Translations under genes and position numbers: made by a program
Part shown: positions 24,562 to 26,253 of the stretch, in pieces
Position numbering within the stretch: position 1 is the stretch's first letter
How the letters are laid out: each line of letters starts with the position of its first letter
The notes under the pieces: model-generated
Told to the model about the DNA's origin: nothing
What the model saw: only the letters and a program-made list of their open reading frames with translations
The model's database searches: none
Assembly: GCF_021028975.2 (NCBI RefSeq)
Contig: NC_059436.1
Coordinates: forward strand, 36,518,001 to 36,582,000
DNA length: 64,000 bases
From: Sphaerodactylus townsendi
Taxonomy: Eukaryota
Reading direction: 5' to 3'

Positions 24562-25369
24562 CTATTTACAGGAGAGACAGAGGTCAGGCTAATAAAGGAC
24601 CGATATGTTTTTTGTTTTAGTATTTCTAAGTATGTGCAGCACCTTCGTGTAATTGGCATTCCCCATCTGCCACTTTATCCCTCTTTGCCCCTTCGTTCCC
24701 TGCATCACTTCTCATGTCAAACTCTAGGCTGAAACACACTGTGGGAAAGGACTTACTTCTTGCTCATTTGCACTATATGAAACAGAAGGATCCTGCAATG
24801 TGATCTGGGCCCGATGGTGCCAGTACTGCTCCACTGACTGTTTGAAAGTCAACTGTGCCTTGACCCAGCAGGAAGACAGCCCAAGTCCTTGTAACATTTT
24901 CCCTGCTACCAAAATCCTCATATTGGCTTTCTTTCCTACTCTGTGCCAGATTATCAGCCAACTATCAGCCCTTACAAAAGGCATGCACTGCCCAAAGAGA
25001 ACTATGTACCTGCAGGACAACTGCTCAGACCGGCTGGCCCAGCGAAAGCCACCCAGCAGGGGAATGCTTTAGCAAGAGCAGATTCACACTGCATCCACGG
25101 GTTTGTTAGCAGTGTTGGGTGTTAGCCTTGCAGATTTTTTTTAAAGCTCTCCTGCAATTATCCATACATGCCACTTACCTACTCAATATAAGGTGCTCTG
25201 AGATACTTCTTAAAAATAGCCATTATTTGATTTGAGCTCACTTAAGCTTTGAGAATATTAAAACTTTACATGCTGCTACATGGATGCCGACCACCTGTTC
25301 TGGCTCTGCCCTTGTTTCACTTAGAGTGCAACGGATGGGCAGGAGGCAAAAATGTCAGTTTAGACTTAC

Positions 25370-25451
25370 TTTATAAAACTTCCTGAGGTTTTCCTTCTGG
25401 GTCTGGTTAATGACTGTCAGCACTCTGGCGATGGATTTGCGCACAACCCGG
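25370..25451 (-). CDS. RPL35: 60S ribosomal protein L35, exon 3 (copy nearer exon 4)
   Basis: Same 82-nt exon with intact splice sites. Only one copy can be used for a full-length protein. Confidence 0.85.
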
Positions 25452-25950
25452 CTGCAAAGGGCAAAGAGAGATGAGGTTAAGGAGAACAATAACAGTGGCA
25501 AGACCACAAGCTTGGTGTTCTCTTGATACACTGGATGATTTTACTACCAAGGATAATTGTGCACTGGCCTGGGACCTGAAAGGCCCAGATTCTAATTCTA
25601 GTTCTGTCAAACTCACTTGCTTTTGGGCAAGCCCCTGTCTAGGAATGCTTTAGCAAGTGCAGATTCACACTGCATCCACGGGTTTGTTAGCAGTGTTGGG
25701 TGTTAGCCTTGCAGATTTTTTTTAAAGCTCTCCTGCAATTATCCATACATGCCACTTACCTACTCAATATAAGGTGCTCTGAGATACTTCTTAAAAATAG
25801 CCATTATTTGATTTGAGCTCACTTAAGCTTTGAGAATATTAAAACTTTACATGCTGCTACATGGATGCCGACCACCTGTTCTGGCTCTGCCCTTGTTTCA
25901 CTTAGAGTGCAACGGATGGGCAGGAGGCAAAAATGTCAGTTTAGACTTAC

Positions 25951-26032
25951 TTTATAAAACTTCCTGAGGTTTTCCTTCTGGGTCTGGTTAATGACTGTCA
26001 GCACTCTGGCGATGGATTTGCGCACAACCCGG
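25951..26032 (-). CDS. RPL35: 60S ribosomal protein L35, exon 3 (copy nearer exon 2)
   Basis: Encodes (I)[32 protein letters not shown] acceptor, GTAAGT donor, 82 nt. Identical to 25370-25451. Confidence 0.85.
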
Positions 26033-26253
26033 CTGCAAAGGGCAAAGAGAGATGAGGTTAAGGAGAACAATAACAGTGGCAAGACCACAAGCTTGGTGTT
26101 CTCTTGATACACTGGATGATTTTACTACCAAGGATAATTGTGCACTGGCCTGGGACCTGAAAGGCCCAGATTCTAATTCTAGTTCTGTCAAACTCACTTG
26201 CTTTTGGGCAAGCCAAAAATTGAGCTAAGGCTGTGAAATAACCTGTAGACAGG

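What the first reader, a model, noticed from the sequence alone, without database searches (positions are those of the whole stretch)
25061..26214. RPL35 exon 3 is tandemly duplicated with both splice-site pairs intact
Seen: a 573-bp unit repeated at a 581-bp period carries two identical 82-nt exons separated by 499 nt, with one substitution and an 8-bp junction (CCTGTCTA). 82 is not a multiple of 3. Including both copies gives 74 normal residues + [14 protein letters not shown] (88 aa), with TAA only 37 nt upstream of the last exon junction. Established: that is inside the 50-55-nt NMD-escape zone, and RPL35 is an essential, dosage-sensitive ribosomal protein. Inference: if real, the locus must enforce one-of-two exon choice without steric exclusion, or it makes a truncated uL29, and it could also make an exon-3 circRNA. 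Near identity, an N-gap elsewhere in the window and a breakpoint 40 bp from a solo LTR make an assembly artefact at least as likely.
Basis: partly seen in the sequence, partly recalled or inferred. Interest (0 to 1): 0.7.

Follow-up and report, generated by a model that had tools for sequence, protein, structure and literature searches.

The report
Likely false RPL35 exon duplication
This lizard genome assembly shows exon 3 of the ribosomal protein gene RPL35 twice, but the public sequencing runs that cross the site carry it once, so the doubling is likely an assembly error beside a variable retroelement insertion, or at most a private mutation of one animal.

Summary
The duplication is in the assembly as described: 573 bp twice, one substitution, 8-bp spacer, two identical 82-nt exons; including both gives 88 aa with a stop 37 nt before the last junction. 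It is not a feature of the species. In 3 of 3 DNA-like runs of the best-matching organism a single contig runs left flank, one unit, right flank; a duplication would split it. An RNA-like run carries the window's LTR and exon-2 letter yet also enters the unit from the left flank; two relatives' contigs also begin to match only after the spacer. The solo LTR 39 bp away is present/absent polymorphic, a known setting for false duplications. Best reading: false exon gain (0.68). Rival: a private heterozygous duplication (0.27): the spacer is an inverted copy of 26246-26253 (chance about 1%), and such duplications are not common in this assembly (0 others in 1.2 Mb; 0 of 60 LTR loci). Raw reads of the assembled animal would decide. 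A regulated one-of-two system is unsupported. The scan's notes showed no earlier case like this. Side finding: the LTR donates a splice site to RPL35.

The parts
31631..31633 (-). RPL35 start codon, end of exon 1
   Evidence: ATG followed by GT donor; pyrimidine-rich 5' leader upstream
28041..28177 (-). RPL35 exon 2 (137 nt)
   Evidence: Pfam PF00831; joint 26032-28041 in run X4
25642..26214 (.). Duplicated unit, copy B (first in transcript order); carries T at 25658
   Evidence: every contig laid here shows 1 other letter near the unit start, likely 25658
25951..26032 (-). Exon 3, copy B (82 nt)
25634..25641 (+). 8-bp spacer CCTGTCTA; reverse complement of 26246-26253
   Evidence: 18-mer across it is unique in G000; contigs join the flanks to one unit without it
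25061..25633 (.). Duplicated unit, copy A; carries A at 25077
25370..25451 (-). Exon 3, copy A (82 nt, identical to copy B)
24412..24561 (-). RPL35 exon 4, coding part with stop (150 nt)
   Evidence: exon 3-exon 4 loose ends in X4
26246..26253 (-). Candidate template of the spacer; ends with the LTR's left target-site copy
   Evidence: exact 8/8 inverted match 32-39 bp beyond the unit end; 0.7% of genomic 8-mers fall within 40 bp of a breakpoint
26254..27179 (+). Solo LTR (926 bp, TG...CA, 5-bp target duplication ACAGG), present/absent polymorphic, antisense to RPL35 (orientation inferred from family members followed by internal sequence)
   Evidence: skipped by X1 contig and by relative X8, present in X4
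26970..27666 (-). Candidate 697-nt stop-containing cryptic exon: intronic acceptor at 27666, donor inside the LTR at 26970
   Evidence: joints 27663-28038 and 26032-26970 in X4; one search stop after 57 aa; that both joints lie in one transcript is inferred
24672..24693 (-). Intron-3 purine stretch complementary to the exon-3 polypyrimidine tract (25456-25477 and 26037-26058)
   Evidence: 22 nt, 82%; -31.4 kcal/mol; 1 of 200 shuffles, 7 of 300 genomic controls as strong

Best explanation
The second copy of the 573-bp unit is likely an assembly error (a false exon gain), and RPL35 has one exon 3 in the animals whose runs cross the site. Shown: the assembly holds two copies; contigs of the organism join left flank, one unit and right flank; the LTR 39 bp away is absent on some chromosomes and present on others. 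Inferred: the assembled animal was heterozygous or hard to resolve at this LTR, one sequence block ended just short of the insertion and the next began 573 bp further back, and the overlap was kept instead of merged. The 8 unsupported letters and the single substitution 17 bp into the second block are likely block-end noise, possibly from one chimeric molecule that folded back on the small palindrome at the insertion site. The gene then makes the normal 123-aa uL29 and needs no exon-choice mechanism.
For:: in X1, X2, X3 (3 of 3 DNA-like runs, 2 samples) exactly one contig lies on the stretch and it joins across: left-flank letters precede the unit, right-flank letters follow it, joint '25932 to 25352, goes back 581' at depths 73.5, 30.2, 23; in a toy 31-mer graph a heterozygous or homozygous duplication splits this path into four pieces with an 85-bp junction piece at half or full flank depth. 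RNA-like X4 has the window's haplotype marks (LTR 3' end, contig 27149-27666 with 0 differences; G at 28082) and its intron contig runs from the left flank into the unit unbroken; its spliced contigs join exon 2 to exon 3 and exon 3 to exon 4; relatives X5 and X8 match from 25642 on, X8 with 1030 other letters before it. LTR skipped in X1 (26248 to 27180) and X8. PMC9516828 (passages, section 7): false duplications favour boundaries of heterozygous sites, are sometimes joined by read-unsupported sequence, and include false exon gains. RPL35 is among heterozygous Diamond-Blackfan genes (PMC6958429, passage), so a real frameshift allele is likely costly and rare.
Against: No raw reads were available, and whether any run is of the assembled animal is unknown; X1's contig differs from the window (no LTR, A at 28082), so it is another haplotype. 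Contigs drop rare variants. No N gap separates the copies. The pattern is not common in this assembly: 0 further adjacent duplications of 150 bp or more at 99% or more in 1.264 Mb and 0 of 60 loci of this LTR family. The spacer looks templated (0.7-2.2% by chance), which a plain overlap error does not explain. My test for a noisy raw-read patch failed: the unit copies are clean and the LTR's private differences come in blocks, not as scattered noise.
Confidence: 0.68

Rival explanations
1. A real, very recent duplication private to the assembled chromosome (heterozygous germline, or somatic mosaic). A polymerase stopped at 26214, copied 8 nt from the opposite strand 32-39 bp ahead, then resumed 573 bp back (template switching or polymerase-theta-type joining), adding one substitution 17 nt past the junction. 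The allele would mostly splice in both exons and make an 88-aa product that escapes junction-dependent decay, with some normal mRNA by skipping, as in patients' exon duplications.
For: Inverted 8/8 template near the breakpoint; substitution next to the junction, with T likely the derived letter; templated insertions within 100 nt and new variants near junctions are described marks of such events (PMC6258378, passages); such duplications are rare in this assembly; ATP7A exon duplications give out-of-frame plus some wild-type transcript (PMC3240829, abstract).
Against: No microhomology at either switch point. Single-copy path in 3 samples of the organism, one with the same LTR haplotype. Inverted short-range chimeras also arise in strand-displacement amplification (PMC1855051, abstract), so the templated look does not separate biology from library. 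A frameshift allele of a dosage-sensitive gene is a priori rare.
Confidence: 0.27
2. The duplication is fixed or common in the species and is held in check by one-of-two splicing, or yields a functional short uL29 or an exon-3 circle.
For: Both copies keep full splice signals; one intron-3 stretch can pair with either copy's pyrimidine tract.
Against: A homozygous duplication would split the contigs, yet unbroken single-unit contigs stand in X1, X2, X3 and X4. Steric exclusion (branch point 474 nt from the donor), spliceosome incompatibility and decay (37 nt) do not apply. Identical exons give no new protein.
Confidence: 0.02

Closest known systems
False exon gain / false duplication in genome assemblies (Ko et al. 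2022, PMC9516828; passages and section 7 read)
   Same: Near-identical adjacent copies that add an exon; spacer without support in available sequence; next to a site that differs between chromosomes; independent sequence crosses the locus with one copy.
   Different: No N gap between the copies; read depth and pair discordance not measurable here; spacer has a nearby inverted template.
Tandem duplications with templated insertions (FoSTeS/MMBIR, MMEJ/polymerase theta; PMC6258378, passages read)
   Same: Head-to-tail copy, short insertion matching sequence within 100 nt of the junction, substitution close to the junction.
   Different: No microhomology at either switch; no read support for the junction in any of 6 runs laid.
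Pathogenic intragenic exon duplications (ATP7A, PMC3240829; abstract read)
   Same: Head-to-tail, frame-disrupting exon duplication; skipping could give some normal transcript.
   Different: Those are confirmed in DNA and RNA, span 2-15 exons; here one exon and unconfirmed.
Mutually exclusive exons born by tandem duplication with competing RNA structures (Ivanov and Pervouchine 2018, PMC6071210; abstract and passages read)
   Same: The duplicated unit carries one arm of a possible stem whose other arm is single, the geometry that paper proposes.
   Different: The arm is the pyrimidine tract itself, the pairing is only modestly above controls and was found after the fact, the exons are identical, and the duplication is likely not real.

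Membership tests
False exon gain (Ko et al. 2022) | Independent sequence crosses the locus without the duplication | tested here: met
   contigs of X1, X2, X3 join both flanks to one unit; X4 joins the left flank to the unit. Not known to be the assembled animal.
False exon gain (Ko et al. 2022) | Assembly gap or read-unsupported sequence between the copies | tested here: inconclusive
   No N gap. The 8 spacer letters lie on no contig in 6 of 6 runs laid, but contigs show presence, not absence.
False exon gain (Ko et al. 2022) | About half read depth over both copies; discordant read pairs | not testable with these tools
   Only contigs are held; depth is one figure per contig.
False exon gain (Ko et al. 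2022) | Lies at a boundary of a heterozygous site | tested here: inconclusive
   The LTR 39 bp away is absent in X1's contig and present in X4; heterozygosity in the assembled animal is inferred.
Tandem duplication with templated insertion | Insertion matches sequence within 100 nt of a breakpoint | tested here: met
   8/8 inverted match at 26246-26253; chance 0.7% (40 bp) to 2.2% (100 bp); the distance was chosen after seeing the match.
Tandem duplication with templated insertion | Microhomology at the switch points | tested here: not met
   none between unit end and template, template and unit start, or the two unit ends.
Tandem duplication with templated insertion | Junction present in the animal's raw reads | not testable with these tools
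   No raw reads listed.
Mutually exclusive tandem exons | Two exons with intact splice sites | tested here: met
   (in the assembly).
Mutually exclusive tandem exons | Short separating intron (steric exclusion) | tested here: not met
   499-nt intron, branch-point-like site 474 nt from the donor.
Mutually exclusive tandem exons | Mixed U2/U12 splice sites | tested here: not met
   Both copies have the same GTAAGT donor and AG acceptor; the U12 donor form is recalled, not from a call.
Mutually exclusive tandem exons | Double inclusion removed by nonsense-mediated decay | tested here: not met
   Stop 37 nt before the last junction against the 50-55-nt rule (PMC7764535, passage); decay itself not assayed.
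Mutually exclusive tandem exons | Docking site with competing selector sequences | tested here: inconclusive
   -31.4 kcal/mol; 1 of 200 shuffles and 7 of 300 genomic stretches as strong; best of 18 inverted pairs listed; conservation not tested.
Mutually exclusive tandem exons | Transcripts with one or the other exon | not testable with these tools
   The copies are identical, and the RNA-like run comes from a sample with a single-unit path.

The most novel reading that the evidence does not exclude
A brand-new heterozygous duplication in an essential ribosomal protein gene, caught at birth: it copied exon 3 together with one arm of a pre-existing intronic stem, so the single arm in intron 3 can mask either copy's acceptor and make the two identical exons mutually exclusive from the first generation, rescuing the allele without help from decay. 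That would be a direct natural test of the Ivanov-Pervouchine model for how mutually exclusive exons originate.
Probability: 0.03. Interest if true: 0.65.

Novelty: not a real feature. Interest (0 to 1): 0.14.

Why it matters
If false, it is a warning for this assembly and for the scan: an essential gene looks frameshifted or oddly regulated because of a 581-bp error with no N gap to flag it, and RPL35 models here should use one exon 3. If real and private, it is a natural ribosomal-protein loss-of-function allele of an expected type. Only the 3% case (instant one-of-two splicing through a duplicated stem arm) would bear on an open question. The side finding, a polymorphic LTR lending a splice donor to RPL35, can be tested by comparing LTR-plus and LTR-minus alleles.

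Tried and rejected
1) No RNA holder was on record; X4 is called RNA-like only from its exon-restricted depth and spliced joints. 2) No exon 3-exon 3 joint was listed for X4 (50 contigs laid, 43 pieces not shown), while minor joints at depth 57 and 27 survived; contigs cannot show absence, so this is not counted as evidence. X4 has no cover at 25472-25631. 3) Raw-read patch: prompted by earlier notes; the window's LTR has 47 private substitutions and 9 indel events against 2-14 and 0-2 in the 11 best copies, but in blocks, and no closer copy turned up among 40 scored candidates in each; not the pattern of long-read noise, unexplained. 4) Systematic artefact: none other in 1.264 Mb (864 kb around and including the window, 200 kb each of C4 and C1) or at 60 LTR-family loci, 484 kb (3 of the 60 showed no LTR match above 300 bp; their overlapping 95-98% repeats and LTR pairs were set aside as not comparable). 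5) The N run as evidence: rejected. 6) Spacer from inside the LTR (9-mer at 26557): possible but 6.6% by chance at that distance. 7) Spacer as adapter remnant: a partial likeness recalled from memory, not tested. 8) circRNA: no long inverted arms flank the exon (best 22 nt, 82%) and that pair exists on a single-copy allele too. 9) The word shares (0.80-0.82) lie between 0.71 and 0.87 expected without the junction and the LTR's private words; the junction is only 1.6% of words, so this cannot decide. 11) PMC6918601 passages were not relevant. 12) Literature: (RPL35, exon duplication, tandem duplication; 12 of 196 listed, none of the 12 names RPL35) and one search showed no report of an RPL35 exon duplication or poison exon; most subscription papers and all supplements were unseen.

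Full report
OBSERVATION. The window holds a 573-bp unit twice (25061-25633, 25642-26214) with one substitution (A25077/T25658) and the spacer CCTGTCTA. RPL35 is on the minus strand with four coding exons; both copies of the 82-nt exon 3 have the same acceptor and donor and lie 499 nt apart. One copy gives 123 aa, both give 88 aa with the stop ending 37 nt before the last junction, none gives 53 aa. Exon 2 matches Pfam Ribosomal_L29. The unit occurs nowhere else in G000 except an 80-bp, 88% match in a processed pseudogene on C11.

IS IT IN THE ORGANISM? One search listed 16 runs, all kept as contigs; 4 of them, of one organism code (3 samples, 1 study), hold 71-82% of the words. I laid these 4 on one period centred on the junction. 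In X1, X2 and X3 one contig each lies there; it enters the unit from the left flank, passes through it once and leaves into the right flank (joint 'goes back 581', loose ends equal to the two flanks; depths 73.5, 30.2, 23). Each shows one other letter near the unit start, likely the A of copy A, which would make T25658 the odd letter (inferred: the table of other letters is empty, so the difference lies near a piece end). In these contig sets every 31-mer occurs once (Logan preprint 10.1101/2024.07.30.605881, passages). A toy graph shows that a duplication, heterozygous or homozygous, splits the path into four pieces with an 85-bp junction piece at half or full flank depth. So a fixed duplication is excluded for these samples. 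A heterozygous one would be hidden only if the assembler pruned the junction piece; by my recollection of its rules (not checked) a 3:1 depth ratio is below the usual cut-off, but not by much.

X4 behaves like RNA (depth confined to exons, GT-AG joints; not on record as RNA). Its contigs join exon 2 to exon 3 and exon 3 to exon 4, and an 867-letter intron contig runs from the left flank into the unit. X4 carries the window's haplotype marks: the LTR 3' end with 0 differences over 27149-27666 and G at 28082, where X1 has A. So the LTR-bearing haplotype exists without the duplication. X2's contig ends 64 letters after the unit, which would be 25 letters into the LTR; that X2 also bears the LTR is an inference. 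Two runs of other organism codes (X5, X8) match from 25642 on; in all 4 runs the first bin's depth equals 85/93 of the contig depth, which is the 8 spacer letters uncovered. Limits: 6 of 16 runs were laid; tables 7 and 8 were cut; whether any run is of the assembled animal is unknown.

THE SETTING. A 926-bp solo LTR with a 5-bp target duplication starts 39 bp after the unit. X1's contig skips it (26248 to 27180) and so does X8's: it is present on some chromosomes and absent on others. Ko et al. (PMC9516828; passages and section 7) report that false duplications favour boundaries between homozygous and heterozygous sites, are mostly separated by gaps but sometimes by read-unsupported sequence from wrong gap filling, and include false exon gains. 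That fits, apart from the missing gap.

RESULTS AGAINST THE ARTEFACT READING. No other adjacent, non-microsatellite duplication of 150 bp or more at 99% or more turned up in 1.264 Mb, nor at 60 loci of the same LTR family, so this is no routine error of the assembly. The spacer is the exact reverse complement of 26246-26253, the last 8 bases before the LTR; 0.7% of genomic 8-mers would match within 40 bp of a breakpoint, 2.2% within 100 bp (distance chosen after the fact). Templated insertions and new variants near a junction are marks of repair and replication errors (PMC6258378, passages). However, there is no microhomology at either switch, and inverted short-range chimeras are also typical of strand-displacement amplification (PMC1855051, abstract); whether such a library was used is unknown. 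My test for a raw-read patch, a lead from earlier notes, failed: the unit copies are clean, and the LTR's many private differences come in blocks.

MECHANISM. Best (0.68): overlap of two sequence blocks left unmerged beside the variable LTR, with unsupported letters at the join; the steps of the join are inferred. Rival (0.27): a real private allele from a double template switch; it would mostly include both exons and give an 88-aa product, since the stop is closer than 50-55 nt to the last junction (PMC7764535, passage), with some normal mRNA from skipping as in ATP7A duplications (PMC3240829, abstract). RPL35 is listed among heterozygous Diamond-Blackfan genes (PMC6958429, passage), so such an allele is likely harmful. 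A fixed, regulated duplication (0.02) is contradicted. The remaining 0.03 is unassigned.

ONE-OF-TWO SPLICING. Of the four mechanisms listed in PMC6071210 (abstract and passages), three fail here: the intron is long (branch-point-like site 474 nt from the donor), the splice sites are identical, and decay would not act. The fourth is open: the exon's pyrimidine tract can pair with a single stretch of intron 3 (-31.4 kcal/mol, 1 of 200 shuffles and 7 of 300 genomic controls as strong). A real duplication would therefore create two selectors for one docking site, the geometry that paper proposes. The pairing was found after the fact, involves low-complexity sequence and would mask the only acceptor in the normal gene, so it is probably idle; joint probability about 0.03.

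SIDE FINDING. X4 shows two minor GT-AG joints: exon 2 to an acceptor at 27666 (depth 26.7) and a donor inside the LTR at 26970 to exon 3 (depth 57.1). Together they would define a 697-nt exon with a stop after 57 aa, far upstream of later junctions; 9 of 12 LTR copies carry that donor motif. Contig depth cannot rank forms, but these look rare. Decay-coupled splicing is known for other ribosomal protein genes such as RPL3 (PMC7764535, passage). One run, so a lead only.

NOVELTY. No report of an RPL35 exon duplication appeared (15 of 63 and 12 of 196 listed; supplements and most subscription papers unseen). The scan's notes held nothing with all the words. The label 'gecko/lizard' comes from those notes and was not tested. 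Verdict: observation confirmed, biology most likely absent; interest 0.14.

Noticed in passing
window 26254-27179: Solo LTR in RPL35 intron 2 is present/absent polymorphic: skipped by X1's contig and by relative X8, present in X4.
   Followed up: partly
window 26970-27666, minus strand: Two minor splice joints in X4 (exon 2 to 27666; LTR donor 26970 to exon 3) suggest a 697-nt stop-containing cryptic exon that only the LTR-bearing allele could close.
   Followed up: partly
window 26488-27148: The window's LTR is an outlier of its family: 92% to the 11 best copies, which are 94-98.5% alike; 47 private substitutions and 9 indel events in blocks. Odd for a polymorphic, presumably young insertion; recombinant, unsampled subfamily or assembly mosaic.
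   Followed up: partly
L141, L144, L147, L181: LTR pairs of this family only 1.8-2.1 kb apart, 95.3-99.7% alike: short, probably non-autonomous elements, some very recent; family not classified.
   Followed up: no
L003 (G000:C11:37146016 region): Intronless, decayed RPL35 processed pseudogene.
   Followed up: partly
window 24672-24693 with 25456-25477 / 26037-26058: Predicted pairing between intron 3 and the exon-3 pyrimidine tract, modestly above controls; present on a single-copy allele too.
   Followed up: partly
window 28082: Exon-2 letter differs between runs: A in X1 and X8, G in the window, X4 and X5.
   Followed up: no
window 29288-29330 and 31230-31272: A 43-bp perfect inverted match within RPL35 intron 1.
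   Followed up: no
window 20285-21225: A long palindromic and tandem repeat array with period about 380-390 bp.
   Followed up: no
G000:C12:36184727-36190072: A 150-bp perfect direct repeat 5196 bp apart, possibly the ends of a young element.
   Followed up: no
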